Origin: an uncultured Gemmatimonadota bacterium
GTDB taxonomy: Bacteria > GCA-2686955
NCBI GenBank assembly: GCA_964490075.1
Contig: CAZBBK010000063.1
Coordinates: forward strand, 1 to 35,112
Direction of reading: 5' to 3'
DNA: 35,112 nucleotides
Made by a program: the position numbers and the translations under genes. How positions within the stretch are numbered: position 1 is the stretch's first letter; the number at the start of each line of letters is the position of its first letter. This document shows positions 10,736-23,643 of the stretch, piece after piece. A model generated the notes under the pieces. The model did not search any database. It was given only the letters and a program-made list of their open reading frames with translations, and was not told the DNA's origin.

Positions 10736-10885
10736 GAAAAGACCTTTCCCGAGGGATGCGAAGCGGCGAAACAGGGTTCGGGGATCATAACGGGTCGGAT
10801 CGGATTCCCTGTCCAGTTTCGGAGCCGCCGTGCCGATCTTCAGGGAAGGAACGAATCGCGTCGATCAAACCGGAGCACCGCCCCC

Positions 10886-10966
10886 ATGCAGTGGCTGTAC
10901 CGTATCTTCCTCGCTTCGCTCGCCACCTGGATCGTCCTCGCCGCGCGAGCCGCCGAAGGGATTTGA
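10886..10966 (+). CDS. Possible 26-aa hydrophobic small protein MQWLYRIFLASLATWIVLAARAAEGI
   Basis: ggag upstream of the ATG, one hydrophobic segment, stop lies 15 nt from the convergent imm-like stop. Confidence 0.35.
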   Translation: MQWLYRIFLASLATWIVLAARAAEGI

Positions 10967-10981
10967 TCGCCGCCTCTCTGG

Positions 10982-11212
10982 CTAGAGGCGTTGGCTGTCC
11001 CCGTCGAAGCCGGTCCGGGGTGCCGCGGGGACATCCGAGCGCAGCGACCACCACAGCGCCAGCGCCCAGGCCGCCAGGGTCCACCCGGCGAGCACGTTGA
11101 CCACCAGGATCCGCGGAGCGCGCGGATGGCGCCGGAACAGTGCCACCAGCGAAGGGGCCAGGTAGACCCCCAGGCAGAGGGCGAAGAGCAGCTGGACGGT
11201 CTGAGAGTTCAT
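10982..11212 (-). CDS. Superinfection immunity protein (T4 Imm-like membrane protein)
   Basis: YLAPSLVALFRRHPRAPRILVVNVLAGWTLAAWALALWWSL matches the family pattern Y-x-x-P-x-x-x-A-x-x-R-x-H...N-x-x-x-GWT-x-x-x-W-x-x-AL-x-W. Confidence 0.8.
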   Translation of the reverse strand: MNSQTVQLLFALCLGVYLAPSLVALFRRHPRAPRILVVNVLAGWTLAAWALALWWSLRSDVPAAPRTGFDGDSQRL

Positions 11213-11323
11213 CGAGAGTCCCGGGGCTCCCTCGTCCAACGAGGGAGGAAGCGAGTCCGCACACCCTATCGATCGGCGTGACGCGGGGCCCGGTTGATTC
11301 GCATGCCATGCTACCTTGGCGCC

Positions 11324-11689
11324 ATGCCGGGCACGCACGCGACGAATGACGATGCCGCGCTTGCGGCCGCGCTGCGATCCGCCCGCGAAGCGCTGGAGCG
11401 TCCCGGCGCACCGGACGAGCTGAGCCGGTCGCTCGCGACCTGCGCGGCGGCGATCGATGCGTCGGCCCTCGAAGAGCGGATGGCGGCAGCCTGCCCGCGT
11501 GCCCGCCGCTACCTCGAGGAGCTGCGCGCCGATCGCGCGCGGCTGCTGGCCGAGCTCGATGCGCGACCCGGACGCTCCAGACGAGGCCGCGCCGCCGGCG
11601 CCGATCCCGAGCGAGGGGCGGCACTGCTGCGGGCCTGGCGCCACCACCTCGACTCGATCGCCCGTCTGCGGGAGCGCGCGACGCGTTGA
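11324..11689 (+). CDS. Hypothetical all-helical protein (~121 aa)
   Basis: Fills the gap between the imm-like gene and the dehydrogenase stop; preceded by TGCTACCTT-N6-ATG (possibly leaderless). Confidence 0.5.
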   Translation: MPGTHATNDDAALAAALRSAREALERPGAPDELSRSLATCAAAIDASALEERMAAACPRARRYLEELRADRARLLAELDARPGRSRRGRAAGADPERGAALLRAWRHHLDSIARLRERATR

Positions 11690-11692
11690 GGG

Positions 11693-12811
11693 TTAGAAAA
11701 GCCGGACCACCGCCTCCGCCACGTCGGTGGTGGACGCCTCGCCGCCCATGTCGTAGGTGCGGACCTCGCCGCCGCGGATCACCTCGGCGATCGCCTTCTC
11801 CAGGCGCCCGGCCTTTTCGGACTCGCCCAGCCAGTCGAGCATCAGCTTGCTGGTGAGCAGCATCGCCATCGGGTTGACCTTGTTCTTGCCGGCGTACTTC
11901 GGCGCCGAGCCGTGGGTCGGCTCGAACACCGCGTAGTTGTCACCGATGTTGCCGCTGGCCGCGAAACCGAGCCCGCCGACGAGCTGGGCGCAGAGGTCGG
12001 AAATGATGTCGCCGAACATATTGGCCGCCACCAGCACGCCATAGTCCTGCGGGTTCTTGACCAGCCACATGCACATCGCGTCGATGTTGGCCTCCCACAG
12101 GTCGATGCCGGGGTAGTCGCGTGCCACCTCGCGCGCCATGCGCACCATCAGACCCGAGGTCTCGCGCAGCACGTTCGGCTTCTCGACCACCGTCACGGTC
12201 GGATAGCCGTGGGTCTTGGCATACTCGAAAGCCTGGTTGGCGATGTTGCGGGCGCCGTTGCGGGTGATCACCCGGATCGACATGGCGATGTCGTCGAGCG
12301 GCACGTCGGCGAAGCGGCGCATCTTCGGATGGTTGCGAGTCAGCACATCCATCACCTCGGCCGGCAGCGGGTTGAACTCGATCCCGACGTAGAGACCCTC
12401 GGTGTTCTCGCGGAACACCACCAGGTCGATGTCGTCGCGGAGATTCAGCGGGTTTCCGCCGAAGGCCTTGCAAGGGCGCAAATTGGTGTGCAGGTTGAAT
12501 TCCTGGCGCAGGCGCACGATGGGGCTGGAGTAGACCAGTCCCTTGGTCCGCAGCTCGGGATCGAGCGCGGCCTGCGCCTCTTCCTTGGGCATCGAGGTGA
12601 TGGCGCCGAAGAGCGCGCAGTCGGTCGTGCGCAGCAGCTCCAGGGTGCGGTCGGGGAGCGGGTTGCCTTCGTGCTTCCAGAATTCCCAGCCGATATCGGC
12701 GTGGACATATTCGGCATCGAGGCCGATTGCATCGAGCACCATTCGCGCGGCATCCATGACATCGTTGCCGATGCCGTCGCCGGGCATCCAGGCGATCCTG
12801 TACTGAGCCAT
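11693..12811 (-). CDS. Isocitrate/isopropylmalate dehydrogenase family enzyme, homoisocitrate dehydrogenase-like
   Basis: PGDGIG, YSSPIVRLRQEFNLHTNLRP (recalls fungal Lys12 YSSPIVALRR), RENTEGLY, KPNVL, NMFGDIISDL, FEPTHGSAPKYAG, NPMAM; ggagga RBS. Confidence 0.88.
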   Translation of the reverse strand: MAQYRIAWMPGDGIGNDVMDAARMVLDAIGLDAEYVHADIGWEFWKHEGNPLPDRTLELLRTTDCALFGAITSMPKEEAQAALDPELRTKGLVYSSPIVRLRQEFNLHTNLRPCKAFGGNPLNLRDDIDLVVFRENTEGLYVGIEFNPLPAEVMDVLTRNHPKMRRFADVPLDDIAMSIRVITRNGARNIANQAFEYAKTHGYPTVTVVEKPNVLRETSGLMVRMAREVARDYPGIDLWEANIDAMCMWLVKNPQDYGVLVAANMFGDIISDLCAQLVGGLGFAASGNIGDNYAVFEPTHGSAPKYAGKNKVNPMAMLLTSKLMLDWLGESEKAGRLEKAIAEVIRGGEVRTYDMGGEASTTDVAEAVVRLF

Positions 12812-12849
12812 TGTTCCTCCAAGGGACGAGTCGTGGTGTGAAACACTGA

Positions 12850-12878
12850 AGGCTACCGTCCACTATCGGGGACTGCAA
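12850..12878 (-). promoter_or_regulatory. Sigma70-type promoter for the dehydrogenase gene
   Basis: Minus strand TTGCAG-N17-TAGCCT, about 40 nt upstream of the ATG at 12811. Confidence 0.5.
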
Positions 12879-12891
12879 GGAATGGGGCGCC

Positions 12892-15252
12892 TCAGAGAGG
12901 GTCCCGGCGAGGTCGCCGGGACCCTGCTTCGGGCTTTGGGCCCGGACATCGGACATCAAGGGCGGACCGCGTGGTTGGCGAGCGATCGAGCCGAGTGAAA
13001 GCCGACGACGTTGCCGGGATTCTGCCGCCTCGGCGCGTACGATCCTCTTCCGCCCCCAACCACAGGTCGCCGCCGGGACCGCCGTAGGCGCCCATGTCGG
13101 GATCGGCTCCGTTGCCGGCGCCGTAGCCCGCGTGGAAATCGGACCAGGGGATCGCGTCGGGATCGCCTTGCCCGGCGTCGATGCAGGGGGAGCCGGGGAG
13201 CAGCAGGTAAGGAACATCCGTCCAGGTGAAGAAACGCGGATCGGCGTCGATATTGCCCGGACCCGCCCAGCCGCCTTCCACGTCGCTGTAGCGGACCAGG
13301 GGGGTGCCGAATCCGATCACGTCGATCTGCCCGGGCGTATTGCCCCAGACGATGCTGTTGTGGAAGATCATCGTGGAGTTCCACGACAGGATGGCGGCCC
13401 TGGACGGTCGCTGCGCGTGGTTGTTCACGATGGTGCAGTTCGAGAATACCGGCGCTGAGTCGTAGCACTCGATGGGCTCATCGTCGCCGACATTGTCGCT
13501 GATGAGACAGTTATGGATGAGTGGAGAGGAGGAGGCGCCGCACTTCATCACGGTATTGGCAAACCCACCTTCGTTGTCGCGGATCACGCAGCCCGAGATG
13601 GTGGGAGAAGAGATGTTGCAATAGATGGCGGCACCCAAGGGCTCGATGGAGTTGGCGACGATTTCACATCGGGTGAGTGTCGCGTTCGAGTGCCGGAAGT
13701 GGATGCAGCCGGTCGTGCCTGCCGAGTTGCCGGTGATCAGGCAGCGATCGATGAGCGGGCTGCCCTCGTTGCAGTACAGCGCCGTGACGCCTCCGGTGAG
13801 GGTCAGGCCCACCAGGCGCTGTTCCTTGACTCTGGACGGCGTGAACCGGATCAGGTCCCGCCCCCCGCCTTCGATGGCGGTAGCGGCCACCACTGCCGGA
13901 TCGTCGGGATCGGAGCCCCTGAGCTCCAGATCCAGAGCCGGGATCACCAGCTCGGGCTCGGGATAGGTGCCGGGATCGACGACGATCGTGTCCCCTGCGC
14001 AGGCCGCCCGGAGCGCCGCGCGAAGGGTGGCGTGGTCCGCCGGGACCCGAAGACGCGCCGGCACATGCACACTGGGCACGCTGCAGTCCTCGCCCCATGC
14101 GCCCATGTCGGCACCTGAGAATCCGTTTCCGAGGCAGGGCGAGTCGGCCGCGACACCAAAGCTGCGGAGTCGATCGCAGGCACCATCGCAGAATCGCGGA
14201 TCGGCGTCGATGTTCCCCTCTCCGGGCCATCCATCCCGCACATCGGAGTAGGTGATGCTCGCATCGCCGTCGGCGTCAGCTCCGATCTCCAGCGGAGCGT
14301 TGTTCCAGACGACACAATTGATCAGGCTCGGAAACCCCTCCTGGTCGCAGTAGAGCCCGCCGCCTTCCGAGCCCCAGTTGCCGGCGATCGTGGAGCTCGA
14401 GATCAACGGCGCGCCGAAGGCGCAGTAGATACCGCCGCCACCGCTCGCGGTCGCTACGTTGTCTACGATGGTGCAGCGGATCAGCTCGCTCGATCTCTCT
14501 GCATCGCTCCAGAACATCACGCCTCCCCCGTGCATCGCCCAATTGCGGGAGATCTCGCAGTCTACGAGGGTCGGACCGGAGCGGTAATTGGTGCCGATGC
14601 CGCCGCCGGAGCTCGCGCTTCGATTGTCCACGATTCTGCAGCGCCGAATCAGCGGCCGGGAGCGGAACATACAGGCGATGCCCGCGCCCCGGCCTTGCGC
14701 CGTGTTGTTGGCGATGGTGCACTCCTCGATCGTTGGGGACGCATGGTCGCAACAGATCCCTCCGCCATCCGACGACAGGTATTCGGAGCCGCCCGGCACC
14801 TCGTTGCCCCGCACCACGCAACGCCAGATGCGCGGCGACGCGCCCTTGCAGAAGATCCCTCCGCCCCAGCGGTAGTCCCAGAAGAGACCCCGATCGACCT
14901 TCGACCCGGTGCCGCCCGTGAGCGTGAATCCGGCCAGCACCGACCCCGGGCCTTCGCCGTCGACGAATCTCACGACCGAGCACAGATCCCAGCACGAGGC
15001 GGTCGACGCGTCGATCACGGTCGCGGCCACCACGCACGAGTCCCAGGGCGCTTCGCTGGTCACCGTGACGGCCTTGCCGTGGTACTGGATCGCCTCGGAG
15101 TAGGTTCCGGGAGCGACCAGCACCGTGTCACCGTCCGACGCGGCGTCGATTCCCGATTGGATCGTGGCTTGGTCCGCGGGAATCTGGATCGTCGCCGCGG
15201 AAGCGGCGGAAGCGAGAGCAAGCGCGATCAGCGCAAAGCGATTCTTCGTCAT
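12892..15252 (-). CDS. Secreted right-handed parallel beta-helix (pectin-lyase-like) repeat protein with a duplicated module
   Basis: Signal peptide MTKNRFALIALALASAASA; two modules starting IPADQATIQSGIDAASDGDTVLVAPGTY and VPADHATLRAALRAACAGDTIVVDPGTY, each ending GNIDADPRF...SPC...DMGA; many GGGI-x-C / C-x-I-x-x-N repeats. Confidence 0.8.
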   Translation of the reverse strand: MTKNRFALIALALASAASAATIQIPADQATIQSGIDAASDGDTVLVAPGTYSEAIQYHGKAVTVTSEAPWDSCVVAATVIDASTASCWDLCSVVRFVDGEGPGSVLAGFTLTGGTGSKVDRGLFWDYRWGGGIFCKGASPRIWRCVVRGNEVPGGSEYLSSDGGGICCDHASPTIEECTIANNTAQGRGAGIACMFRSRPLIRRCRIVDNRSASSGGGIGTNYRSGPTLVDCEISRNWAMHGGGVMFWSDAERSSELIRCTIVDNVATASGGGGIYCAFGAPLISSSTIAGNWGSEGGGLYCDQEGFPSLINCVVWNNAPLEIGADADGDASITYSDVRDGWPGEGNIDADPRFCDGACDRLRSFGVAADSPCLGNGFSGADMGAWGEDCSVPSVHVPARLRVPADHATLRAALRAACAGDTIVVDPGTYPEPELVIPALDLELRGSDPDDPAVVAATAIEGGGRDLIRFTPSRVKEQRLVGLTLTGGVTALYCNEGSPLIDRCLITGNSAGTTGCIHFRHSNATLTRCEIVANSIEPLGAAIYCNISSPTISGCVIRDNEGGFANTVMKCGASSSPLIHNCLISDNVGDDEPIECYDSAPVFSNCTIVNNHAQRPSRAAILSWNSTMIFHNSIVWGNTPGQIDVIGFGTPLVRYSDVEGGWAGPGNIDADPRFFTWTDVPYLLLPGSPCIDAGQGDPDAIPWSDFHAGYGAGNGADPDMGAYGGPGGDLWLGAEEDRTRRGGRIPATSSAFTRLDRSPTTRSALDVRCPGPKPEAGSRRPRRDPL

Positions 15253-15329
15253 TGGGGATTCATCCTGCGGTTGGGGGCGGGCGCACATAGCACGCACCTT
15301 CGACCGAGGGGACGTTTCCGGTCGCCCCA

Positions 15330-16649
15330 CTACTCTAACCCGGACCTCTCCCAGATCTCGAAAGCTCCCGCTCGATGGCCGGCCTCGTCGTCATCCGGGG
15401 CGCCGATCAAGAGTTCGAAGCGCCCGTCTCGATCGAGATCGAAACCACCCGCCAGGGTGTGGCCCCACGATGCCTCGGGACGAGTCCCGTGGAGCTTCAC
15501 CAGGGGCAGCTGCTGCAGTGTCGCGCCCGGGCCGCCGGCGAAGATCGCGACGGTCCCCTTGGTGTCGTTGGCGCCCGGCGCCGAAATCGCCAGGTCGACG
15601 ATTCCGTCCCCGCTGAAGTCGGTTCCGCCGGCGATCGACGCCCCAAAAAACCCGCCCTTCTCGCGACCGACCAGCGTGTCGACGATCACCGGCTCGGGAT
15701 CGACGCCGTGCAGCACTCCGACCCAGCCGAGCAGACCGCGCCCGCCCCCATGGAAACGCGGCGCGCCGAAGGCGAAATCTGGCACGCCATCCAGATCCCA
15801 GTCGCCGGCCGCGGCCAGAGCGTAGGAGAACCACGACTCCGGCGCCGGTCCCTCGATCCGCACGCGAGATCCGTCCAGTATCAGAAAGGCCCGCCCCCGA
15901 GTGTTGGTGTGGCGGGCGAAGATATCGTGGTCGCCGACCACCAGGTCATCGCACTGATCGCCGTCCAGATCCCCGGCGGGCGCCAGCCGCGAGCCGAGGT
16001 TGGAGGTGACCTGCGGATTTCCCTCCACAACCTGGTCGGGCCAGGGGTCGAGATCGGGGCCGCCGTGGAAGGTCCAGATCGCGCCGGCCCACTCGTCGGC
16101 CCCGTCGTCCGCCCCCACGACGATATCGTGCCAACCGTCGCCGTCGGCGTCGTGGGCCGCCACGCTGTAGCCGAAGTAGTCGCGCTCGAGCGCCCCGTAG
16201 AGCAGGAGATTCGGCAGCGTCGAGACACCCCGCGGGCTCCCGAAATGCACCTGAACGCCCGAGGGGGGATTCTTGAAGGGGGCGCCGATGAGCAGATCGT
16301 CGATGCCGTCGCCGTTGACGTCCTCCTCCCCGAACACCGAGTAGCCGGAATGGCCCCACCCCCAGGCTCCCGGCACGATCTGCTGCTCGGGTGGGATTCG
16401 GCCGGAGTAGAAGACCTCCACGCCGCCGCGCCGATCGGAGCTGCGGTGGGAGCTGACCGCCAAGTCGTCCCATCCGTCGCCGTTCCAGTCGCCGCTGGTG
16501 AAGGCGTAGCCGAGTGATGCGTCGGACTCGCGGCCCAGGCGCCGCATGACGAGATACCAATCGGCGTCGGCGGGCGCCGGAGGTTGCTCCGCCGGACCCC
16601 CCGCGCCCAGTGCGAGCGCCGCACAGTGGGCGAAAATACAGATCGACAT
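15330..16649 (-). CDS. FG-GAP / integrin-alpha-like beta-propeller repeat protein, likely secreted
   Basis: Seven Ca-binding repeats of type GD-x-[ND]-GDG-x-x-D-L-x-x-GAP (DWNGDGWDD, DVNGDGIDDLLIGAP, DADGDGWHD, DLDGDQCDD, DWDLDGVPD, DFSGDGIVD, DLDRDGRFE). Confidence 0.85.
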   Translation of the reverse strand: MSICIFAHCAALALGAGGPAEQPPAPADADWYLVMRRLGRESDASLGYAFTSGDWNGDGWDDLAVSSHRSSDRRGGVEVFYSGRIPPEQQIVPGAWGWGHSGYSVFGEEDVNGDGIDDLLIGAPFKNPPSGVQVHFGSPRGVSTLPNLLLYGALERDYFGYSVAAHDADGDGWHDIVVGADDGADEWAGAIWTFHGGPDLDPWPDQVVEGNPQVTSNLGSRLAPAGDLDGDQCDDLVVGDHDIFARHTNTRGRAFLILDGSRVRIEGPAPESWFSYALAAAGDWDLDGVPDFAFGAPRFHGGGRGLLGWVGVLHGVDPEPVIVDTLVGREKGGFFGASIAGGTDFSGDGIVDLAISAPGANDTKGTVAIFAGGPGATLQQLPLVKLHGTRPEASWGHTLAGGFDLDRDGRFELLIGAPDDDEAGHRAGAFEIWERSGLE

Positions 16650-16769
16650 ATCGGTCCCCAGACCGCGACTCGCTCGTCCAAGACGGCCGCTCTCTGGCGC
16701 GGCCCGTCCGGCGCCCCATGCTGTCGGACAGCTATAGCGTAACCCAGAAAGGGGGCCGGCAAAACGGGA

Positions 16770-18710
16770 TCAGGAGTCGCGTGCCAGTCTCGCCTTCACC
16801 ACCGCCTCGGCGCCCCCCGCCAGCACCAGCTCCTGGGCCACGGTCGACAGCGGCGGGATCGGGAACTCCCGGCCGCGCCAGGTGAGACGACCGGCCGCGA
16901 AGTCGACCCGCGCCTCGCCTTCGAGCGCCAGAGTTGCGGCGGATGCATCCAGCTTGCCACTCTCGAGCTCCGCCCGCAGCAGCTCGAGCAGCTCGGGGCA
17001 GGGAAGGGTGATGAAGCCGTTGTTGAAGGCGTTGCGCATGTAGGTCTGCGAGAAACTGCCGGCCACCACCATGCGAATTCCACGGTGGGCCAGCGCGGTG
17101 GCGGCCTGCTCGCGCGACGATCCGGTGCCGAAGTTGTTGCCGCCGACCAGGATGTCGCCAGCGCGCGCGATCGACTGGAAGTCCGGGTCGTAGTTCTGCA
17201 TCGCGGCGGCCGCCATCTCGTCGGGAGTCATATCGTCGCGATAGGTGAACTCCTTGCCGTAGATGCCGTCGGTGTTCATGTTGTCCTTCGGCACGTAGAG
17301 CAGACGACCCTCGATGGAGCGCGGGAAGCCCTCCAGGAAGTCGACACTTGCGGCCTCGCGCGGGACGCTTCCGTGGGACTGGGACGAAACCAGGAGCGGC
17401 TCGTCGGCGAAGGGATCGGGGCCGGTGATGTAGCCGGCGCAGGCCGAAGCGGCGACCACCGCCGGGCTGGCGAGGTATGCCTGGGCGTCGCGCGAGCCCA
17501 TGCGCCCCTTGAAGTTGCGATTGGTGGCCGAGATCGCCCTCTGGCCCGGCTCCAGCGTGCCTTCGCCGAGACCGATGCAGGGCCCGCAGCCGGGCGGCAG
17601 CACCCGAGCGCCGGCGCGCACCAGGTCGCCCCAGGCTCCGAGCCGCTCCGCCTCCTGCTGGACCTCGCGGCTGGCCGCCGCCAGATAGAGCTCGACCCCG
17701 TCGGCGAGGGTCTTGCCGCGCACCACCTGCGCGGCATCGAGGATGTCTTCCAGGCGGCTATTGACGCAGGAGAGCAGATAGGCCTTGTGGACCGGGATGC
17801 GGCGCTCCGCCAGCGCCGGCAGCGGCGTGATCGCCTGTACCTCGTCGGGACCCGCGACGTGCGGCACCACGTGGCCGAGGTCGAGCTTCAGGGTGAGCCG
17901 GTGGTCGGCGTCGGGATCGCTCTGGATAGCGCGCGCGCGCCACTCGCGAACATCGTCGGCGGAGAAGCACTGATGCCGAGCGGCCTGCTCCAGGAGCCAC
18001 TTCTCGAGCACCTCGTCGAAGGGGAATCTCCCGGCCAGGGCGCCCCACTCGGTGGTCATGTTGGCGATCGTGAGACGCTGGTCCATCGACAGCGACGCCA
18101 GTCCCTCGCCGTCGAACTCCAGCGTACGGTTGAGCGCCTCGCCGCTCTGGAAGGTACCGATCAGGGCGATGATCACGTCCTTGCCCCGCACCCCCTTGCG
18201 CAGTCGGCCCTGGAGCACCACCCGCGCCGACTCGGGCACCTGCCACCAGGTCTCGCCGGTGGCCCAGATGGCCGCCGCGTCGGTGCGCACCACCGGAGTG
18301 CCGAGCGCCGCCAGGGCGCCGTAGATGTTGGAATGCGAGTCGGAGGCCACCACCATGCTGTCGGGCACCACATAGCCCTCCTGGCACATGATCTGGTGGC
18401 CGATCCCGCTCCCGGCCGGCCAGAAATCGACGCCCTGCTCGCGCGCGAAGCTCTCGATCCGCTCGTACTTGGCCAGGTTGGCGTCGGAGCGGTTCTGGAT
18501 GTCGTGGTCGAGGGTGAAGACCGGCTGCTGGGGGTTGCGCACCCGCGCGGCGCCGATCGAGCGGAACTTGCCGAGCACCGCGGCGGTGTTGTCGTGGGTC
18601 ATCACGTGACGCGGGCGGATGGTGACATAGTCGCCAGCTCGCACCACATGGCCGGCGGGCAGCCCCACCGCGTGGGACTGGACGATCTTCTCGATGGCGG
18701 TCTGGGGCAT
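16770..18710 (-). CDS. lysF: Single-chain (fungal Lys4/LysF-type) homoaconitate hydratase
   Basis: N-terminus QTAIEKIVQSHAVGLPAGHVVRAGDYVTIRPRHVMTHDN recalls yeast Lys4; SDSHSN; Fe-S ligands SCVNSR and GCGPCIGLG; TNRNFKGRMG; fused swivel domain NTDGIY...NFGTGSSREQA. Confidence 0.85.
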   Translation of the reverse strand: MPQTAIEKIVQSHAVGLPAGHVVRAGDYVTIRPRHVMTHDNTAAVLGKFRSIGAARVRNPQQPVFTLDHDIQNRSDANLAKYERIESFAREQGVDFWPAGSGIGHQIMCQEGYVVPDSMVVASDSHSNIYGALAALGTPVVRTDAAAIWATGETWWQVPESARVVLQGRLRKGVRGKDVIIALIGTFQSGEALNRTLEFDGEGLASLSMDQRLTIANMTTEWGALAGRFPFDEVLEKWLLEQAARHQCFSADDVREWRARAIQSDPDADHRLTLKLDLGHVVPHVAGPDEVQAITPLPALAERRIPVHKAYLLSCVNSRLEDILDAAQVVRGKTLADGVELYLAAASREVQQEAERLGAWGDLVRAGARVLPPGCGPCIGLGEGTLEPGQRAISATNRNFKGRMGSRDAQAYLASPAVVAASACAGYITGPDPFADEPLLVSSQSHGSVPREAASVDFLEGFPRSIEGRLLYVPKDNMNTDGIYGKEFTYRDDMTPDEMAAAAMQNYDPDFQSIARAGDILVGGNNFGTGSSREQAATALAHRGIRMVVAGSFSQTYMRNAFNNGFITLPCPELLELLRAELESGKLDASAATLALEGEARVDFAAGRLTWRGREFPIPPLSTVAQELVLAGGAEAVVKARLARDS

Positions 18711-18746
18711 CGATCTCTCCCGGTGGATGGATAGGGATAGCGGAAG

Positions 18747-18989
18747 CTACACGATTCGCTCCCTGGCACGGACGTAGGCGCGCTGCCAGAAAATCGCCAG
18801 CAGCGCCGCGAGCAAGGCCTCGCCCCAGGCGCGCTCGAAAGCGCCGGCAATGGCGAGCGATGTCGAAAACACCACCCCGGCCCCCATGGCCGCGCGGCGC
18901 AGCCGAGGGGCGGCTTCCACGAGCTCGACCAGGAACAACCCGAGCCCCGGCAACAGGCAAGCGAGCCCGAGCGTCACCAGCCACCTCAT
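18747..18989 (-). CDS. Hypothetical small membrane protein (80 aa)
   Basis: About three hydrophobic segments (MRWLVTLGLACLLPGLGLFLV...); co-oriented between citF and lysF. Confidence 0.5.
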   Translation of the reverse strand: MRWLVTLGLACLLPGLGLFLVELVEAAPRLRRAAMGAGVVFSTSLAIAGAFERAWGEALLAALLAIFWQRAYVRARERIV

Positions 18990-19197
18990 CGCCGCTCGGG
19001 GCTCCCCGGAGTGCCTACGCGCGAGCCCAAAAAGAATGCGGCGCCTTCCCGATCCTCCCGAGAGATTTCTCTCGGCCAACTCGAGGGGGAAGCCTCGGTT
19101 TCGGCGGGGGACCGGGCGTGAGCGCCGCAGGTATCTCCAATATGGCCTCGATGCGCGGCGGAGTCCACAGATTTCCGGCCCAAAATCACGGGATTGA

Positions 19198-20760
19198 TCA
19201 GGATTCGCTCTCCACGGAATGCACGCAGTCGATGGTCGTGCCGTCCACCCACTGAATCGCCGCCACCACCTTGCCCGAGCGCTCCCGCACCGCCGGCGCT
19301 CCGCCGCAGATCCGCTCCACCTCGGCCTTGAGCTGGCCGATCTCCAAGAGCGGCAGATCGGAGCCGGAAAGCGCCTCGAGCAGATCCCGGCGCCGCGGGT
19401 TGATGCACAGACCGCGCTCCGTCGCCACCACGTCGATCAGCTCCCCCGGGCCGCAGAGCGTGGTGACCGAATCGAGGATCACCGGCACCCGGTTGCGAAA
19501 CGAAGGGACAGCCAGGATGGTGCAGCGCGCCTCGAGACAGTTCTGCCAGCCGCCGATGCCGTGCAGCAGGCGGCCGTCGGTGTGGGTCACCACGTTGGCG
19601 TTGAAGTCGACGTCGACCTCGGTGGCCCCCAGGATGACGACGTCGACCATCGAGGCGAAGTTGCCCTTGCCGTGGTAGTTGTAGGAGGTGAAGGGACTGG
19701 TGTTCAGGTGGCCGAGGTTGTCGCGCATCGAGCGCACCCCCTCGAGGTCGAAGGTCTGACCGTCGAGGATGAAGGGCGTGAGCCCCTCTTCGAGCATCTC
19801 CACCAGGTATTGGTTGGAACCGCCGCGCACGAAGCCGGCCCGGACGCCGGCCTCCTTCATCATCTCCTTGAGATAGATCCCGAAGGCCAGCGCCGTGCCA
19901 CCCGCGCCGGCCTGGAACGAAAAGCCGTCGCGCATGATGCCGGCATCGCGCACGAATCGCGCGGCGTACTCGGCGATCAGGAGCCGGTCGGGACTCTTGG
20001 TGATCTGCGTGGTCCCGGAGACGATCTTGGAGGGATCGCCCACCTTCTCCACCTCGACCACCAGGTCGACGTTGTTGCCCTGGATCTGCCAGGGGATGCA
20101 AGGGAAGGGGACCAGGTTGTCGGTCACCACGATCACCTGGTCGGCGTAGAGCGAGTCGGCGAGGCCGAAGCCGAGCAGGCCGCAGGCGCTGGGGCCACGG
20201 TCGCCGGTGGCGTTGCCGAACATGTCGGCAGTGGGGGCGGCCAGCACGGCGATGTCGATGTGGACCTGACCGTCCTGGACCGCCTGCCAGCGCCCGCCGT
20301 GGCTGCGCAGCACCCCCAGGCCGCGCATCTTGCCCCGACTGCAGTAGTCGCCCAGGGGACCGTTCATCGACCCTTCGATGTGGTGCAGCACACCGCTGTC
20401 GAGGTGGCGGATCAAGGGGGCGTGACAGGGGAAGCTGGCGGACGGGAACCAGCGCAGATCCTTCACGCCGAGCTCGGCGGCGGCGTCAAAGACGGCGTTC
20501 GCGACCAGGTCGCCGTTGCGGAAATGGTGATGCGTGCTGATCGTCATGCCGTCGCGCAGGCCGGCCTTCTCGAGCGCCGCGCGGATCGAGGCGACCCGCT
20601 TGTCGCCGCTGGGCGGGTAGTCGCGCGCCGAGCGGATCGGCGGCCCCCACTTCGCGCCCGCCGGTCGATGGGCACCGACTCCCTGGAAGGGAAGCGTCTC
20701 CAGCTCGTTGATGCGGGCCGGAACCAGGCGCCCGGCGGCGTTTTCGATCAGCTCGCTCAT
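19198..20760 (-). CDS. citF: Citrate lyase alpha chain / citrate CoA-transferase
   Basis: GLRDGMTISTHHHFRNGD, LRSHGGR, HIDIAVLAAP, GFSFQAGAGG, DGQTFD, LGATEVDVDFNANV, GGWQ, TTLCGPGELIDVVATERG, DGTTIDCV. Confidence 0.9.
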   Translation of the reverse strand: MSELIENAAGRLVPARINELETLPFQGVGAHRPAGAKWGPPIRSARDYPPSGDKRVASIRAALEKAGLRDGMTISTHHHFRNGDLVANAVFDAAAELGVKDLRWFPSASFPCHAPLIRHLDSGVLHHIEGSMNGPLGDYCSRGKMRGLGVLRSHGGRWQAVQDGQVHIDIAVLAAPTADMFGNATGDRGPSACGLLGFGLADSLYADQVIVVTDNLVPFPCIPWQIQGNNVDLVVEVEKVGDPSKIVSGTTQITKSPDRLLIAEYAARFVRDAGIMRDGFSFQAGAGGTALAFGIYLKEMMKEAGVRAGFVRGGSNQYLVEMLEEGLTPFILDGQTFDLEGVRSMRDNLGHLNTSPFTSYNYHGKGNFASMVDVVILGATEVDVDFNANVVTHTDGRLLHGIGGWQNCLEARCTILAVPSFRNRVPVILDSVTTLCGPGELIDVVATERGLCINPRRRDLLEALSGSDLPLLEIGQLKAEVERICGGAPAVRERSGKVVAAIQWVDGTTIDCVHSVESES

Positions 20761-21972
20761 CTACGCGTCCTCGACTTCCCAATCGGCCGCCAGCCGCCCG
20801 GTGGCGATCGCCAGCTCGACGCAGCTCTGGGCCCGCTTGACCACCGGGGGATCGATCATCTTGCTGCCCAGGCTGACCACCCCCAGGCCGCGCGCCTCGG
20901 CTTCGCGGAAGGCGCGCACGATCTTCCGGGCGCGCTCGATCTCGGCCGGGGCGGGGGCGAAGGCATCGTGCACCAGCGGGATCTGCCGCGGATGGATGCA
21001 GCCCTTGCCCTCGAAGCCCAGGGCGCGGGCCTCGGCGACCGAGTCGCGCAGGCCCTGGGGGTTGCCGACGTCGGAGTAGACCGAGTCGATCGCCTGCAGG
21101 TCGGCGGCGCGCGCCGCGTTGACCAGCATGCTGCGGGCCCACAGGCTCTCCTCGCCGCGCTCGGTGCGCGCCACGCCGAGGTCGGCGGTGTAGTCCTCGA
21201 GCCCGATGGTGAGCGCCACGTTGCGATCGCTGGCCGCGGCGATCTCGGTGGCGTTCATGATCCCGGCCGCGGTCTCGATGATCGGCATCAAGAGCACCTC
21301 GGCCTCGGTGAGCAGCCGGATTCGATCGTCGACCCGCTGCACGTCGCCGGCCGACTCGACCTTGGGGATCAGCACCAGGTGCACGTTGTGGGCGGCGATC
21401 TGGTCCAGATCCTCCAGGCCCAGCTCCCCCTGGTTGATGCGCACCATGCGCTCGGCGCCCATGAAGTCGACCTGGCGCAGGGCGTTGCGCACCAGGATGC
21501 GCGAGGCCGGCTTGGCGCTCGACGCCACCGAGTCCTCGAGATCGAGGATGACGCCGTCGGGGCGGTAGAGACCGGCGTTCAGAAAGAGCTTGGGCTGGCT
21601 GCCGGGAAGGTAGAGTCGAGAGCGGCGCAGCCGATCGCGCCGGGTCTCGGTTGGGGCCGCGGGGCCGAGCTCCGGCAGCCAGCTGCGGCGCCGGCCGACG
21701 CCCGCCGCATGGATCGCCGCCTCGAGACGTGCCATCAAGACGAAGGGGACCGCCCCCCCATCCTCGCAGCGCAGGGCGCCGTGCTCGGCGCCGAGCGCCG
21801 CGCAGCCCTGGAGCAGCAGCTCGCGAATCGAGTCGCCGTAGTAGGGCTCCACGGTGCTCGCGAGCTCGATCGAGAGCGCCCCGGCGGCGGCGGGCTCGTA
21901 ACGGATCCAGCAGTCGGAGCGAACCCGCGGCCCGCGGTTCCCGGCTTCGCCGGCACAGAGCTTGGTGGACAT
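20761..21972 (-). CDS. citE: Fused citrate lyase ACP (CitD) and citryl-CoA lyase beta subunit (CitE)
   Basis: N-terminal ~90 aa CitD-like (SIELASTVEPYYGDSIR...EDGGAVPFVLMARLEAA), then CitE motifs RRSRLYLPG, ILDLEDSV, VRIN, PKVE, IIET, GLEDY, GKGCIHP, MIDPPV. Stop abuts the citF ATG. Confidence 0.88.
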   Translation of the reverse strand: MSTKLCAGEAGNRGPRVRSDCWIRYEPAAAGALSIELASTVEPYYGDSIRELLLQGCAALGAEHGALRCEDGGAVPFVLMARLEAAIHAAGVGRRRSWLPELGPAAPTETRRDRLRRSRLYLPGSQPKLFLNAGLYRPDGVILDLEDSVASSAKPASRILVRNALRQVDFMGAERMVRINQGELGLEDLDQIAAHNVHLVLIPKVESAGDVQRVDDRIRLLTEAEVLLMPIIETAAGIMNATEIAAASDRNVALTIGLEDYTADLGVARTERGEESLWARSMLVNAARAADLQAIDSVYSDVGNPQGLRDSVAEARALGFEGKGCIHPRQIPLVHDAFAPAPAEIERARKIVRAFREAEARGLGVVSLGSKMIDPPVVKRAQSCVELAIATGRLAADWEVEDA

Positions 21973-22092
21973 GGAAGTGCTCCTGCGAGACCGCACCCGG
22001 GGGGAACGATTCGGCGGCGTCGAGAGTCGAGAGGATGCCATGATCGACCGCCGAGCCTACCGCCGCCGATCGCTTTTCGCTACTCTGGGCCG

Positions 22093-23643
22093 ATGGAGCG
22101 AGCGATCACCGCCACCCACGTTTACCGCTATCTGCTCTGCGAGCACAGCGCCACGCTCGCCTTCCACGGCGATCCGGCGCGGCGGGTGAACCCCCACGAG
22201 GGGCTCAGGTTGATGCTCGAGCTGGGCAACCGCCACGAGGCCGACTTCGTCGCCGAGCATTGCGCAGACTGGTCGACGCCGCGTTATCCCGAACGCGATT
22301 GGGGGGGGGGATTGGAAGCAACACTCGAGCTGATGAGAAAGGCGGTGCCGGGAATCCTTCAGGGAGTGCTGCTGGGACCGGACCGCCTGGGAATGCCGGA
22401 TCTGTTGCGCAAAGAGGCGGGAAAGAGCGAGTTGGGCGACCATCACTACGTGGCGGGGGACATCAAGAGCAGCGCCCGCCCCCACACCGAGCAGGTGATG
22501 CAAGTGTTGTTTTATACGCGGCTCGTGGAGGAGCTGCAAGGGCGGCAGCCCAGCTATGGCTACCTGGTGATGGCCGATGGGCGCGAGAAGCGCTTCCAGG
22601 TAGAGACACTGTTGCCGATCTTCGACGAGGTACTGATGGAGATCCGCGGGATCCGCGCCGGTAAGAGGGCTACGCGACTACATCTCTGTCGCGAGTGCGG
22701 CTCCTGCCAGTGGCGCAACCACTGCCGCGGACAGGCGCTGGCCGCGGACGATCTGTCGCGAATCGCCGGCATCGGGCGCGGCACCGCGGAGCTGCTGCGG
22801 CAGGCCGGAATCGCCACCGTGGCCGAGCTCGCGGCGATGAGCGCCGAGCGCGCTCGTGAAGTGGCCGACGCCGACCTCTTGGGGCTCGAGGTGCTGGAAC
22901 CGCTGCGGCGGCGGGGCCGGGCGACGGCCCGCGGCAAGCCGACGATTCTGTCGGCACCCGACGTGCCGCCGCCGCCCGAAGGGCTCTATGTGGTCGCCGC
23001 CGGCGACCCGCGGCGCGCCGGGAGCGCCTTTCTCTACGACCTGCTCGAAGTGTCCGGGGCGGGAGAGGAAAGGCGCCAGACCCTGCTGGCCGACTCGCCG
23101 GAGCAGGAAGGAGATCTCTGGCGACAGTTTCTGGCGCGTGTCAAGGCGACGATGGGGGAGCGGCGCCACAAACACTTCGCCCACCCGCCGATCTTCCATG
23201 CCGGCGGACTCGCTCCGGCGTCGCTGGAGTCGATCCAGGCGCTGCACGGCGGCGACCGGGAGGCCTTCGAGCGGGTGCACGACGAAGGGATCGATCTGTC
23301 GCGGGTGCTGCTGCGTTCGATCGCTGTCCCCACTCCTTCGGCGAACCTGCGTGCCTATGCCAGCTTCGACGGCTGCGGCGGGGAAAGCGAGGGCGCGCCG
23401 GAGGCCGACTCAGGGCTGGGCTGGGAGCCGGAGTACGGCGGTGCCTTCGGCCACTACTATCCCTGGTACGAACGGCTCGGCGCCACCGGCGAGGCGCGCT
23501 GGCGCGACAAGATCCTGGCGGCGGCCGGGCGCGAGCTGGAGGCGCTGCGCTCGTTGCGCCTGCGCCTGCACGTGGCGGCGGAGCGGGCGAGCGAGGCGCG
23601 GGCGCGGAGCCGCGGGCGCGCGACGGGGGAGCGGCGGCAATGA
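22093..23643 (+). CDS. TM0106-family RecB/Cas4-like nuclease with HhH motif and degenerate RNase H-like C-terminus
   Basis: G-x-x-HE, GMPDLL, GDIKSS, QVLFY (PD-(D/E)xK); Cys in LLCEH plus CRECGSCQWRNHC (Fe-S staple pattern); DDLSRIAGIG...LRQAGIATVAELA. Confidence 0.8.
   Translation: MERAITATHVYRYLLCEHSATLAFHGDPARRVNPHEGLRLMLELGNRHEADFVAEHCADWSTPRYPERDWGGGLEATLELMRKAVPGILQGVLLGPDRLGMPDLLRKEAGKSELGDHHYVAGDIKSSARPHTEQVMQVLFYTRLVEELQGRQPSYGYLVMADGREKRFQVETLLPIFDEVLMEIRGIRAGKRATRLHLCRECGSCQWRNHCRGQALAADDLSRIAGIGRGTAELLRQAGIATVAELAAMSAERAREVADADLLGLEVLEPLRRRGRATARGKPTILSAPDVPPPPEGLYVVAAGDPRRAGSAFLYDLLEVSGAGEERRQTLLADSPEQEGDLWRQFLARVKATMGERRHKHFAHPPIFHAGGLAPASLESIQALHGGDREAFERVHDEGIDLSRVLLRSIAVPTPSANLRAYASFDGCGGESEGAPEADSGLGWEPEYGGAFGHYYPWYERLGATGEARWRDKILAAAGRELEALRSLRLRLHVAAERASEARARSRGRATGERRQ

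What the first reader, a model, noticed from the sequence alone, without database searches (positions are those of the whole stretch)
11693..21972. Candidate new pathway: citrate-lyase-like complex (CitDE + CitF) with fungal-type homoaconitase and homoisocitrate dehydrogenase
Seen: on one strand, citD-citE fusion, citF, a small membrane ORF, single-chain Lys4-like homoaconitase and, after two secreted-protein genes, a Lys12-like dehydrogenase. No homocitrate synthase, lysW/lysX, citC, citG, citX or citrate transporter is in the window. Knowledge: homoaconitase plus HICDH interconvert homocitrate and 2-oxoadipate, and some homologs also accept citrate/isocitrate; CitF/CitE activate a tricarboxylate as a thioester and cleave it. 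Inference: the three activities form one route. Either (a) a homocitrate lyase or synthase replacing canonical homocitrate synthase (2-oxoadipate + CO2 <-> homoisocitrate <-> homocitrate <-> 2-oxoglutarate + acetyl unit), or (b) reductive carboxylation of 2-oxoglutarate to citrate followed by cleavage, as an amino-acid fermentation branch. I know of no characterised pathway with this gene set.
Basis: partly seen in the sequence, partly recalled or inferred. Interest (0 to 1): 0.82.

Follow-up and report, generated by a model that had tools for sequence, protein, structure and literature searches.

The report
Citrate-lyase-like homocitrate module, function untested
A citrate-lyase-like enzyme travels across many bacterial phyla with fungal-type homoaconitase and homoisocitrate dehydrogenase genes, which points to an undescribed route between 2-oxoadipate and 2-oxoglutarate plus acetate.

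Summary
The grouping is not chance. In 41 related loci with enough flank, CitF adjoins CitDE in 40 and the dehydrogenase lies nearby in 36. In a 121-genome class sample, 23 of 24 CitDE carriers also have the Lys4-type gene.

It includes a second hydro-lyase, either PrpD-family or a 600-aa aconitase-family protein. These two were mutually exclusive and together present in 26 of 26 carriers. It usually also includes a small HD protein. In this genome both lie on other contigs (C81, C23).

It is not the housekeeping TCA cycle: AcnB, a monomeric IDH and citrate synthase exist elsewhere. CitG and CitX were not found in any of the 26 carriers.

The sequence evidence favours C7 substrates (homocitrate to 2-oxoadipate). 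Direction and physiological role are open. Most carriers keep lysA, so lysine synthesis is not the general role. I found no description of this gene set in print.

The parts
20761..22041 (-). CitD-like acyl-carrier domain fused to a CitE-like (HpcH/HpaI) C-C lyase domain. The probable start is Met24, at 21972.
   Evidence: Pfam ACP 48.7 bits and HpcH_HpaI 172.5 bits. NCBIfam citE 264.2 bits (cut-off 443.4) and citD 42.6 bits (cut-off 63.5). The carrier Ser42, in an 'RSDC' motif, is conserved in at least 90% of 81 sequences and invariant in the 10-sequence alignment A2.
19198..20760 (-). CitF-like acyl-ACP:tricarboxylate transferase (citrate lyase alpha subunit family). It abuts the CitDE gene.
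   Evidence: Pfam CitF 428.9 bits. NCBIfam citF 475.4 bits, just under the cut-off of 501.45. It adjoins CitDE in 40 of 41 loci with full flanks.
18747..19079 (-). Small hydrophobic ORF of 110 aa or fewer, specific to this lineage. Membership of the module is doubtful.
   Evidence: No Pfam or NCBIfam match. tblastn finds it only in L005 and L016, at 58% and 54% identity, out of 80 loci.
16770..18710 (-). Single-chain Lys4-type homoaconitase homologue (hydro-lyase 1). The proposed reaction is cis-homoaconitate <-> homoisocitrate.
   Evidence: TIGR00139 at 707.3 bits, above the cut-off of 529.9. The translation shows a Cys in 'LLSCVNS' and the pair in 'GCGPC'; that these are the Fe-S cluster ligands is my recollection of aconitase-family motifs. 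It is 53-57% identical to the cluster copies in I. album and Phycisphaerae. It co-occurs with CitDE in 23 of 24 carriers.
15330..16649 (-). FG-GAP repeat protein. An intervening gene, not part of the module.
   Evidence: Pfam FG-GAP 117.9 bits. My own ORF lists of 15 related loci showed no ORF between the dehydrogenase and the hydro-lyase genes apart from the module's HD gene and, in I. album, CstA; not all of those ORFs were scanned against Pfam.
12892..15330 (-). Right-handed beta-helix protein. An intervening gene, not part of the module.
   Evidence: Pfam Beta_helix 91.5 bits. My own ORF lists of 15 related loci showed no ORF between the dehydrogenase and the hydro-lyase genes apart from the module's HD gene and, in I. 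album, CstA; not all of those ORFs were scanned against Pfam.
11693..12811 (-). Iso_dh-family beta-decarboxylating dehydrogenase of a distinct clade. The proposed activity is homoisocitrate dehydrogenase.
   Evidence: Pfam Iso_dh 291.3 bits. The best NCBIfam matches, AksF2/AksF homoisocitrate dehydrogenase, are all below cut-off. The best PDB match is T. thermophilus homoisocitrate dehydrogenase at 244 bits. Its motif YSSPIVRLR equals S. pombe homoisocitrate dehydrogenase YSSPIVALR. The clade consensus is Y.SPIV..RQ. It is 51-60% identical to the cluster dehydrogenases of other phyla.

Best explanation
The window holds four parts of a conserved six-part module that interconverts 2-oxoadipate + CO2 with 2-oxoglutarate + acetate through C7 tricarboxylates.

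**Proposed steps (all inferred, none assayed)**
1. The Iso_dh-family enzyme interconverts 2-oxoadipate + CO2 + NAD(P)H with homoisocitrate.
2. The Lys4-type enzyme interconverts homoisocitrate with cis-homoaconitate. This is the only half-reaction that fungal and Thermus homoaconitases perform.
3. A dedicated second hydro-lyase interconverts cis-homoaconitate with homocitrate. Here it is the 636-aa aconitase-family protein on contig C81. In other lineages it is a PrpD-family protein.
4. CitF moves the thioester of the fused CitD-like carrier domain from acetate onto homocitrate.
5. The CitE domain cleaves homocitryl-S-carrier to acetyl-S-carrier + 2-oxoglutarate.

No ATP or free CoA is consumed.

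**Direction.** I favour cleavage, that is 2-oxoadipate chain shortening, a reverse of the upper aminoadipate pathway, at roughly 60:40 over homocitrate synthesis from acetate.

**Stereochemistry (inference).** CitE-type lyases act on the pro-S arm. The homocitrate handled would then be the (S) isomer, which ordinary aconitase cannot dehydrate. That would explain the obligatory extra hydro-lyase, as PrpD does in the methylcitrate cycle.

**Open points.** How the carrier serine gets a prosthetic group without CitG/CitX is unknown. The conserved HD protein has no assigned role.
For: **Module is real**
- Of 41 loci with at least 8 kb upstream and 2.5 kb downstream: CitF in 40, an aconitase-family gene in 39, the dehydrogenase in 36, two hydro-lyases in 36, the HD protein in 34.
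- Carriers span MAGs labelled Gemmatimonadota, Ignavibacteriota, Phycisphaerae, Eisenbacteria, Acidobacteriota, Calditrichaceae and WOR-3.
- In a 121-genome class sample: both CitDE and Lys4-type in 23, CitDE only in 1, Lys4-type only in 2, neither in 95. The two genes are often on different contigs.
- The second hydro-lyase is PrpD-like in 14 of 26 carriers and the 602-aa type in 12 of 26. The two never overlap and leave no gap.

**Not housekeeping**
- The genome has AcnB (1454 bits), a monomeric IDH and citrate synthase elsewhere.

**C7 signals**
- The homoaconitase equivalog is matched above cut-off: 707 bits here, 884 bits in I. album.
- The dehydrogenase helix YSSPIVxLR is identical to S. 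pombe homoisocitrate dehydrogenase. It lacks the S-x-N seen in the NAD-IDH alignments shown.
- The Lys4-like proteins of the I. album and Phycisphaerae clusters and the LeuD-like small subunits of the alternative architecture share 'GKYTY' or 'GKEFTY' in the specificity loop; this window's copy reads GKEFTY.
- Lys4-type enzymes need a second enzyme for the homocitrate step (PMC3556520, passages read).

**Direction**
- lysA is present in 18 of 24 carriers against 87 of 97 non-carriers.
- From recalled free energies for citrate synthase and acetyl-CoA hydrolysis, I estimate that a thioester-neutral lyase favours cleavage at millimolar concentrations.
Against: - No assay exists. Substrate assignment rests on family models and short motifs.
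- CitF and CitE score best on citrate lyase models, though below cut-off.
- The dehydrogenase is below cut-off for every NCBIfam equivalog.
- T. thermophilus homoisocitrate dehydrogenase, the best full-length PDB hit, also accepts isocitrate (recalled, not from a call).
- The PrpD-family member is nearer to cis-aconitate decarboxylase (91 bits) than to PrpD (57 bits) among solved structures. It may therefore not be a dehydratase.
- No source or sink for 2-oxoadipate was identified. No lysine-catabolic gene is a conserved neighbour.
- One carrier, G002, has LysW, a homocitrate-synthase-like gene and LysX together. There the Lys4-type and dehydrogenase genes could simply serve lysine synthesis.
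- This genome shows neither dapB nor a lysA above cut-off, so a biosynthetic role here is not excluded.
- The loci are dominated by Ignavibacteriota relatives, so the counts are not independent.
- The stereochemical argument is my own inference.
Confidence: 0.5

Rival explanations
1. C6 reading. This is a true citrate lyase with its own accessory aconitase and isocitrate dehydrogenase. It serves either citrate fermentation with a branch to 2-oxoglutarate, or reductive carboxylation of 2-oxoglutarate to citrate followed by cleavage to acetate + oxaloacetate (amino-acid fermentation or an unconventional reverse TCA cycle).
For: - The best family matches of CitF and CitE are citrate lyase subunits.
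- Liu et al. 2012 read the I. album orthologues (IALB_1146/1147) this way and raised the reverse-TCA idea (PMC3362086, passages read).
- The best full-length PDB relatives of the dehydrogenase include NAD-IDHs at 233 bits, close to homoisocitrate dehydrogenase at 244 bits.
- One locus (L013) and its close relative (L014) have a 2-oxoacid:ferredoxin oxidoreductase directly upstream.
Against: - Citrate needs only one aconitase, yet 26 of 26 carriers keep a second dedicated hydro-lyase.
- The hydratase passes the homoaconitase equivalog cut-off and scores only 177 bits on mitochondrial aconitase.
- The dehydrogenase has Ile where IDHs have the isocitrate-binding Asn, and it shares its helix with fungal homoisocitrate dehydrogenase.
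- Housekeeping AcnB and IDH are already present.
- CitG/CitX were not found in any carrier, and CitC was not found in this genome.
- The upstream oxidoreductase is VorB-type and occurs in only 2 of 80 loci.
Confidence: 0.2
2. Another 2-substituted malate. The module is a pro-S-type 2-oxoacid chain-elongation or chain-shortening set for a substrate other than homocitrate. Examples are citramalate (pyruvate + acetate <-> 2-oxobutyrate), or iterative elongation towards 2-oxopimelate and 2-oxosuberate as in methanogen coenzyme B synthesis.
For: - The dehydrogenase's best NCBIfam hits are the methanogen AksF/AksF2 enzymes. These act on several chain lengths (recalled).
- The pocket positions hold hydrophobic Ile-Val. 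Isopropylmalate dehydrogenase has Leu-Leu at these positions (recalled).
- The CitE domain's best solved relative is CLYBL at 140 bits. CLYBL is a citramalyl-CoA lyase (recalled).
- The alternative hydro-lyase 1 is an archaeal-type LeuCD/HacAB pair.
Against: - Lys4-model scores far above cut-off and the fungal homoisocitrate dehydrogenase helix motif point specifically to C7.
- LeuB, a LeuCD pair and two further fused LeuC-LeuD-like proteins that could serve a citramalate route already exist in this genome.
- No evidence for further chain-length-specific enzymes was found.
Confidence: 0.2
3. The genes are functionally unrelated neighbours: an ordinary citrate lyase next to lysine-biosynthesis genes.
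For: In this window two unrelated secreted-protein genes separate the dehydrogenase from the rest. The HD protein and the second hydro-lyase are on other contigs.
Against: Co-occurrence is 23 of 24 against 2 of 97 in a class sample, and it persists when the genes are unlinked. Synteny holds across several phyla. The LysW/LysX lysine route occurs in only 2 of 26 carriers.
Confidence: 0.04

Closest known systems
Citrate (pro-3S)-lyase complex CitDEF of Klebsiella and E. coli
   Same: It has a CitF-family transferase, a CitE-family lyase and a CitD-family carrier with the conserved serine. The catalytic cycle is presumably the same thioester exchange followed by cleavage.
   Different: - CitD and CitE are fused.
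- CitE and CitD score below the equivalog cut-offs, and CitF falls just short.
- CitG and CitX were not found in 26 of 26 carrier genomes.
- No convincing CitC was found in this genome.
- It is tied to homoaconitase and homoisocitrate dehydrogenase homologues rather than to a citrate carrier or oxaloacetate decarboxylase.
Upper alpha-aminoadipate pathway of fungi and Thermus (Lys20/21 or LysS, aconitase + Lys4, Lys12)
   Same: - It has a Lys4-type homoaconitase above the equivalog cut-off.
- The dehydrogenase carries the fungal homoisocitrate dehydrogenase helix motif.
- It needs two hydro-lyases for the isomerisation (PMC3556520).
   Different: - The homocitrate-forming or -cleaving step would be a citrate-lyase-type, CoA-free enzyme instead of an HMGL-family synthase.
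- The second hydro-lyase is a dedicated PrpD-family or 600-aa aconitase-family protein, not the TCA aconitase.
- Most carriers have lysA and lack LysW/LysX.
Methylcitrate cycle (PrpC, PrpD, aconitase, PrpB)
   Same: A pro-S-type condensing or cleaving enzyme is paired with a PrpD-family protein and an aconitase-family hydratase. The logic of two separate half-reactions is the same (PMC3556520).
   Different: There is no PrpC and no PrpB. A beta-decarboxylating dehydrogenase takes the place of a lyase at the iso-acid stage. The PrpD-family member scores only about 88 bits on PrpD models.
Methanogen 2-oxoacid elongation (AksA, AksD/E, AksF)
   Same: The dehydrogenase and the alternative LeuCD-like hydro-lyase score best on the Aks-type models.
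   Different: All scores on the methanogen Aks/Hac equivalog models are below cut-off; the LeuCD-like pair does pass the broader hacA_fam, IPMI_arch and LEUD_arch subfamily cut-offs. There is no AksA-type synthase in the module. The carriers are bacterial heterotrophs.

Membership tests
Citrate lyase complex (CitDEF) | Alpha subunit CitF (acetyl-ACP:citrate transferase family) | tested here: met
   PF04223 at 428.9 bits. The equivalog TIGR01584 scores 475.4 bits, slightly below its cut-off of 501.45.
Citrate lyase complex (CitDEF) | Beta subunit CitE at equivalog level | tested here: not met
   TIGR01588 scores 264.2 bits against a cut-off of 443.4. Only the superfamily Pfam HpcH_HpaI is met.
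Citrate lyase complex (CitDEF) | Gamma subunit CitD carrier with the prosthetic-group serine | tested here: inconclusive
   PF06857 scores 48.7 bits (cut-off 25.1), but TIGR01608 scores 42.6 bits (cut-off 63.5). The Ser in 'RSDC' is conserved in at least 90% of 81 sequences. That this Ser equals E. coli CitD Ser14 is my recalled alignment, not a tool result.
Citrate lyase complex (CitDEF) | Holo-ACP machinery CitG + CitX (and the activating ligase CitC) in the genome | tested here: not met
   CitG and CitX: 0 of 25 other carriers and 0 in this genome. CitC: only a 20.9-bit borderline hit in this genome. This genome is 95% complete; the other carriers are MAGs of unknown completeness.
Citrate lyase complex (CitDEF) | Citrate as substrate | not testable with these tools
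   This needs an enzyme assay.
Fungal-type homoaconitase (Lys4, TIGR00139) | Equivalog model score above the curated cut-off; single chain with both aconitase domains | tested here: met
   707.3 bits against 529.9. Aconitase and Aconitase_C domains lie in one 646-aa chain.
Fungal-type homoaconitase (Lys4, TIGR00139) | Three cysteine ligands of the 4Fe-4S cluster | tested here: met
   'LLSCVNS' and 'GCGPC' are visible in the translation. Their assignment as ligands is by recalled family motifs.
Fungal-type homoaconitase (Lys4, TIGR00139) | Activity on cis-homoaconitate/homoisocitrate only | not testable with these tools
   This is known for the fungal and Thermus enzymes (PMC3556520). It is untested for this clade.
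Homoisocitrate dehydrogenase (Lys12 / Thermus Hicdh / AksF) | Equivalog model score above cut-off | tested here: not met
   AksF2 339.1 bits against 540. AksF 279.9 bits against 500. iso_homocit_dh 207.3 bits against 680.
Homoisocitrate dehydrogenase (Lys12 / Thermus Hicdh / AksF) | Substrate-helix residues of a homoisocitrate-specific enzyme | tested here: met
   YSSPIVRLR against S. pombe homoisocitrate dehydrogenase YSSPIVALR (3ty3), the top local PDB hit. The NAD-IDHs show SSINVAMR. The motif is conserved in the clade.
Alpha-aminoadipate lysine pathway (bacterial LysW type) | LysW and LysX present | tested here: not met
   Neither was found in this genome. Both occur in only 2 of 26 carriers.
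Alpha-aminoadipate lysine pathway (bacterial LysW type) | HMGL-family homocitrate synthase | tested here: inconclusive
   There are two HMGL-like synthases. The C27 protein scores best on nifV homocitrate synthase at 334 bits (cut-off 463), nearly tied with isopropylmalate synthase at 319 bits. It sits next to LeuCD-like genes.
Housekeeping TCA aconitase/IDH | Being the genome's only aconitase and isocitrate dehydrogenase | tested here: not met
   AcnB (1454.5 bits, above cut-off) is on C1. A monomeric IDH (1215 bits) is on C7. Citrate synthase is on C17.

The most novel reading that the evidence does not exclude
This is a widespread bacterial pathway in which a citrate-lyase-type enzyme makes or cleaves the (S) isomer of homocitrate without ATP or free CoA. 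Its fused carrier domain is loaded by a route independent of CitG/CitX. Together with a dedicated homocitrate dehydratase (PrpD-family or a new aconitase-family clade), a Lys4-type hydratase and a Lys12-type dehydrogenase, it forms a reverse aminoadipate route. That route shortens 2-oxoadipate, for example from lysine breakdown, to 2-oxoglutarate + acetate. In acetate-rich cells it could instead run forwards.
Probability: 0.35. Interest if true: 0.85.

Novelty: new variant of a known kind. Interest (0 to 1): 0.72.

Why it matters
- The fused CitDE + CitF genes are routinely read in genome papers as citrate lyase and used to argue for citrate fermentation or a reverse TCA cycle, as for I. album in 2012. 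If the module handles C7 acids, those inferences are wrong for several phyla of sediment and marine heterotrophs.
- It would add a CoA- and ATP-free way to link 2-oxoadipate with 2-oxoglutarate and acetate.
- It would add a new solution to the 'two hydro-lyases' problem of homocitrate isomerisation.
- It poses a clear biochemical puzzle: a citrate-lyase-type carrier protein in 26 of 26 genomes where the only known enzymes that build its prosthetic group were not found.
- It gives close bacterial relatives of the fungal lysine enzymes Lys4 and Lys12, which bears on where the fungal pathway came from.
- Two carriers, Ignavibacterium album and Melioribacter roseus, are cultured, so the question is directly testable.

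Tried and rejected
- **Housekeeping TCA idea:** rejected. AcnB, a monomeric IDH and GltA are present elsewhere.
- **Lysine biosynthesis as the general role:** rejected. lysA is present in most carriers and LysW/LysX in only 2 of 26. It stays possible in a subset.
- **HD protein function:** no result. There is only a Pfam HD and an NCBIfam HDIG domain hit. The Atlas gives only 'HD domain protein' clusters. The AF2 model is good (pLDDT 87.8), but Foldseek finds only generic HD folds; the best is YhaM at E 4e-5.
- **Binding of the HD protein to the CitD domain:** the complex-prediction job returned 'no answer'. This is no evidence either way.
- **Other conserved neighbours:** oxidoreductase, CstA, Memo, EamA, patatin, amidohydrolase, DUF4416, N-acetyltransferase and a PRK-like kinase were each checked. 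Each occurs in only 1 to 15 of 80 loci and within single lineages.
- **Promoter and terminator scan of 11000-23000:** nothing above shuffled expectation.
- **Expression:** no RNA holder was listed for the stretch. No reads were laid.
- **Literature:** no paper holds 'homocitrate lyase'. Only Liu 2012 mentions IALB_1146 to IALB_1150, and only 1146 and 1147. None of the titles and abstract openings listed by searches describes this gene set; only three of those papers were opened.
- **Fungal Lys4/Lys12 phylogeny:** not done. The top 120 hits of the protein search were all bacterial or unnamed, and no fungal sequences were obtainable as stored proteins.

Full report
**1. What is in the window**

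The window is about 70% G+C, so long spurious ORFs abound. Family scans pick out a run of minus-strand genes:

| Coordinates | Gene | Key scores |
|---|---|---|
| 20761-22041 | CitD-like carrier domain fused to a CitE-like lyase | Pfam ACP 48.7 bits, HpcH_HpaI 172.5 bits; citE 264 bits (cut-off 443) |
| 19198-20760 | CitF | Pfam 428.9 bits; citF equivalog 475 bits (cut-off 501) |
| 18747-19079 | Small ORF | no family |
| 16770-18710 | Single-chain aconitase-family protein | homoaconitase TIGR00139 707 bits (cut-off 530) |
| 15330-16649 | FG-GAP protein | FG-GAP 117.9 bits |
| 12892-15330 | Beta-helix protein | Beta_helix 91.5 bits |
| 11693-12811 | Iso_dh-family dehydrogenase | best NCBIfam AksF2 homoisocitrate dehydrogenase, 339 bits (cut-off 540) |

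That is a plausible true start, because conservation begins just after it.

**2. The grouping is conserved**

The CitDE fusion has relatives in at least 486 genome contigs. The 80 loci kept carry titles naming Gemmatimonadota, Ignavibacteriota (including Ignavibacterium album and Melioribacter roseus), Phycisphaerae and other Planctomycetota, Eisenbacteria, Acidobacteriota, Calditrichaceae and WOR-3.

Of these 80 loci, 41 have at least 8 kb upstream and 2.5 kb downstream of CitDE. Counts from my tblastn script:

| Feature near CitDE | Loci of 41 |
|---|---|
| CitF | 40 |
| An aconitase-family gene at 45% identity or more to a module type | 39 |
| The dehydrogenase | 36 |
| A small HD-domain protein | 34 |
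| Two hydro-lyase genes | 36 |

Most of these loci are Ignavibacteriota, so the counts are not independent.

An evenly drawn sample of 121 genomes from the class that holds the I. album-labelled genome gives a cleaner test. CitDE occurs in 24 and the Lys4-type gene in 25. Both occur in 23, CitDE alone in 1, Lys4-type alone in 2, and neither in 95. In about half of the 23, the two genes lie on different contigs or hundreds of kb apart. The association is therefore not merely inherited synteny.

All 5 genomes of the window's own phylum, which is small in the held collection, carry the fusion.

**3.

There are two main architectures:

- **Architecture A** (Ignavibacteria, Phycisphaerae): dehydrogenase, HD protein, Lys4-type hydratase, MmgE/PrpD-family protein, CitDE, CitF.
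- **Architecture B** (Eisenbacteria, WOR-3, some Ignavibacteriota and Acidobacteriota): dehydrogenase, HD protein (absent in the Eisenbacteria loci), a fused 602-aa aconitase-family protein, a LeuC-like and a LeuD-like subunit, CitDE, CitF.

The window's lineage has CitDE, CitF, the small ORF and the Lys4-type gene together. Its HD homologue (53% identity) is on contig C23. A 636-aa protein on C81 is 57-58% identical to the 602-aa type.

Across 26 carrier genomes, the PrpD-family protein is present in 14 and the 602-aa type in the other 12. There is no overlap and no genome without one. This holds even in genomes where the gene is not next to the cluster. That pattern is what non-orthologous displacement of one required function looks like.

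Hydro-lyase 1 is likewise either Lys4-type or the LeuCD-like pair. In the specificity loop after DNxNTD, the I. album Lys4-type copy and the LeuD-like subunits read GKYTY, while this window's copy and the Phycisphaerae copy read GKEFTY. The 602-aa type reads HNRHLA.

No other neighbour is broadly conserved.

**4. It is not the housekeeping TCA cycle**

The genome has AcnB (1454 bits, above cut-off), a monomeric IDH (1215 bits) and a citrate synthase elsewhere. The I. album-labelled genome also has a monomeric IDH.

**5. C6 or C7?**

Four lines favour C7:

- **Hydratase.** It passes the homoaconitase equivalog cut-off here (707 bits) and by a wide margin in I. album (884 bits). It scores only 177 bits on mitochondrial aconitase.
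- **Dehydrogenase helix.** Full-length comparison leaves the dehydrogenase between T. thermophilus homoisocitrate dehydrogenase (244 bits) and NAD-IDHs (233 bits). Its substrate helix reads YSSPIVRLR. The best local PDB match is S. pombe homoisocitrate dehydrogenase, YSSPIVALR. The NAD-IDHs in the same output read SSINVAMR.
- **Clade conservation.** The clade consensus is Y.SPIV..RQ. At the position I recall as the isocitrate-binding Asn of IDHs there is Ile (alignment; the residue role is recalled).
- **Two hydro-lyases.** Fungal and Thermus homoaconitases catalyse only homoaconitate to homoisocitrate and need a second enzyme for the homocitrate step. The same paper explains PrpD in the methylcitrate cycle by the stereochemistry of elimination (PMC3556520, passages read). 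A pathway on citrate would need only one aconitase, yet every carrier keeps two hydro-lyases.

Points against C7:

- CitF and CitE still score best on citrate lyase models.
- The dehydrogenase is below every equivalog cut-off.
- The PrpD-family member is closer to cis-aconitate decarboxylase (91 bits) than to PrpD (57 bits) among solved structures.

**6. Stereochemical rationale (inference)**

Citrate lyase removes the pro-S carboxymethyl arm. Suppose the CitE domain binds a longer 2-oxoacid in place of oxaloacetate. By my working of the priority rules, the tricarboxylate it makes or cleaves is then (S)-homocitrate. HMGL-family synthases make (R)-homocitrate instead.

Aconitase works on the pro-R arm and could not dehydrate the (S) isomer towards the acetate-derived carbon. 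A dedicated hydro-lyase 2 would be needed even though AcnB is present. This parallels the si-type methylcitrate synthase paired with PrpD. It is untested.

**7. The carrier puzzle**

The serine of the carrier domain, in an RSDC motif, is conserved in at least 90% of 81 fusion sequences. Yet CitG and CitX, the only known makers of the citrate-lyase prosthetic group, were found in 0 of 25 other carriers and not in this genome. The same searches found them in control genomes.

Three possibilities remain:

- a different loading route exists;
- phosphopantetheine is used instead;
- the enzymes work with free acetyl-CoA.

The conserved HD protein is a candidate accessory factor, but nothing supports a specific role. 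In the architecture A members aligned, and in this genome's copy, the His of its HD dyad is replaced.

**8. Direction and role**

Lysine synthesis is not the general role.

| Test | Result |
|---|---|
| lysA in the class sample, carriers | 18 of 24 |
| lysA in the class sample, non-carriers | 87 of 97 |
| LysW among the 26 carriers examined (this genome plus 25 others) | 2 of 26 |
| LysX above cut-off among the same 26 | 2 of 26 |
| lysA above cut-off among the 25 other carriers | 12 of 25 |

Two observations keep a biosynthetic role possible in some lineages:

- One LysW/LysX carrier (G002, M. roseus-like) has LysW, a homocitrate-synthase-like gene and LysX side by side. There the Lys4-type and dehydrogenase genes may also feed lysine synthesis.
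- The window's own genome, 95% complete, shows no dapB, no lysA above cut-off, no LysW and no LysX.

This genome also has two HMGL-like synthases of unresolved specificity. One sits next to LeuCD-like genes and the other next to LeuB.

A thioester-neutral lyase has a standard free energy near zero. I derived this from recalled values for citrate synthase and acetyl-CoA hydrolysis. Cleavage is therefore favoured at millimolar concentrations. Condensation would need high acetate and 2-oxoglutarate plus pull from the decarboxylation. On that basis, and because lysA is common in carriers, I lean about 60:40 to the cleavage direction: 2-oxoadipate + CO2 + NAD(P)H to homoisocitrate, to homocitrate, to 2-oxoglutarate + acetate. 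No source of 2-oxoadipate was identified.

**9. What is known**

Liu et al. 2012 noted the I. album CitF (IALB_1146) and the CitE-CitD fusion (IALB_1147). They read them as an ATP-independent citrate lyase and suggested citrate fermentation or an unconventional reverse TCA cycle. The neighbouring genes were not discussed (PMC3362086, passages read). The M. roseus genome paper mentions only the lack of ATP-citrate lyase (PMC3534657, passages read).

Searches for 'homocitrate lyase' (0 papers), for citrate lyase with homoaconitase or PrpD, for the I. album locus tags and for homoaconitase biochemistry listed no title or abstract describing this gene set; I opened only three of the listed papers. 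Public annotation calls the hydratase 'homoaconitase' automatically.

**10. Verdict**

It is best filed as a new variant built from known enzyme families, with a real open question about the carrier's prosthetic group.

Noticed in passing
window 22100-25430 (+): A Cas4-like (DUF83) nuclease-domain ORF is followed by an AAA_11/AAA_12 superfamily-1 helicase, directly upstream of and divergent from CitDE. The same pair flanks CitDE in the related locus L016. The 1474-aa ORF at 19219-23643 is mostly an over-extension across the CitF and CitDE genes.
   Followed up: partly
G000 whole genome: The 95%-complete genome shows no dapB, no lysA above cut-off (best 231.8 bits against 297.9), no LysW and no LysX. 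Its closest relative examined, G023, lacks the same four. How this lineage makes lysine is unclear.
   Followed up: partly
L108 (G002:C137) about 10083-12243: In the M. roseus-like genome, LysW, a 404-aa homocitrate-synthase-like gene (LysS_fung_arch 351 bits, cut-off 413.55) and LysX lie together at a contig end. This genome also has the CitDE module, so it carries both a canonical synthase candidate and the lyase-type enzyme.
   Followed up: partly
alignment A1 (HD proteins), columns about 125-131: In the HD proteins of the architecture A clusters aligned (I. album, M. roseus, Melioribacteraceae L070, Phycisphaerae L008), of the Calditrichaceae locus L078 and of this genome, the His of the HD dyad is replaced by Ala or Ile ('L[AI]DVGK'). 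Architecture B copies keep 'LHD[IV]GK'.
   Followed up: no
window 30537-34914 (-): There are three consecutive SPFH/Band 7 genes. The largest (32379-34814) also carries EamA transporter repeats.
   Followed up: no
window 2258-6754 (+) and 6785-10788 (-): An Hsp90/HtpG domain fills only the C-terminal third of a 1498-aa ORF. A FadL-like outer-membrane ORF and a DUF255 thioredoxin-domain ORF overlap each other. These are probably start-codon over-extensions typical of 70% G+C DNA.
   Followed up: no
G001:C13:205293-206407: The lysA of the I. album-labelled genome matches in two adjacent pieces in separate open frames (profile positions 4-101 and 137-415). This suggests a frameshift or an assembly error in that record.
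   Followed up: no
loci L017, L034, L040, L060, L084: Five Planctomycetota or Phycisphaerae loci have the CitDE fusion, but tblastn found no CitF, hydro-lyase or dehydrogenase in the DNA held. L034, L040 and L084 have several kb on each side. These may be a different use of the fusion, or dispersed genes.
   Followed up: no
G000, phylum level: The held species collection has only 5 genomes in the window's phylum, although NCBI titles of the nearest contigs call them Gemmatimonadota. The stretch is held by DNA runs of one marine-metagenome study.
   Followed up: no
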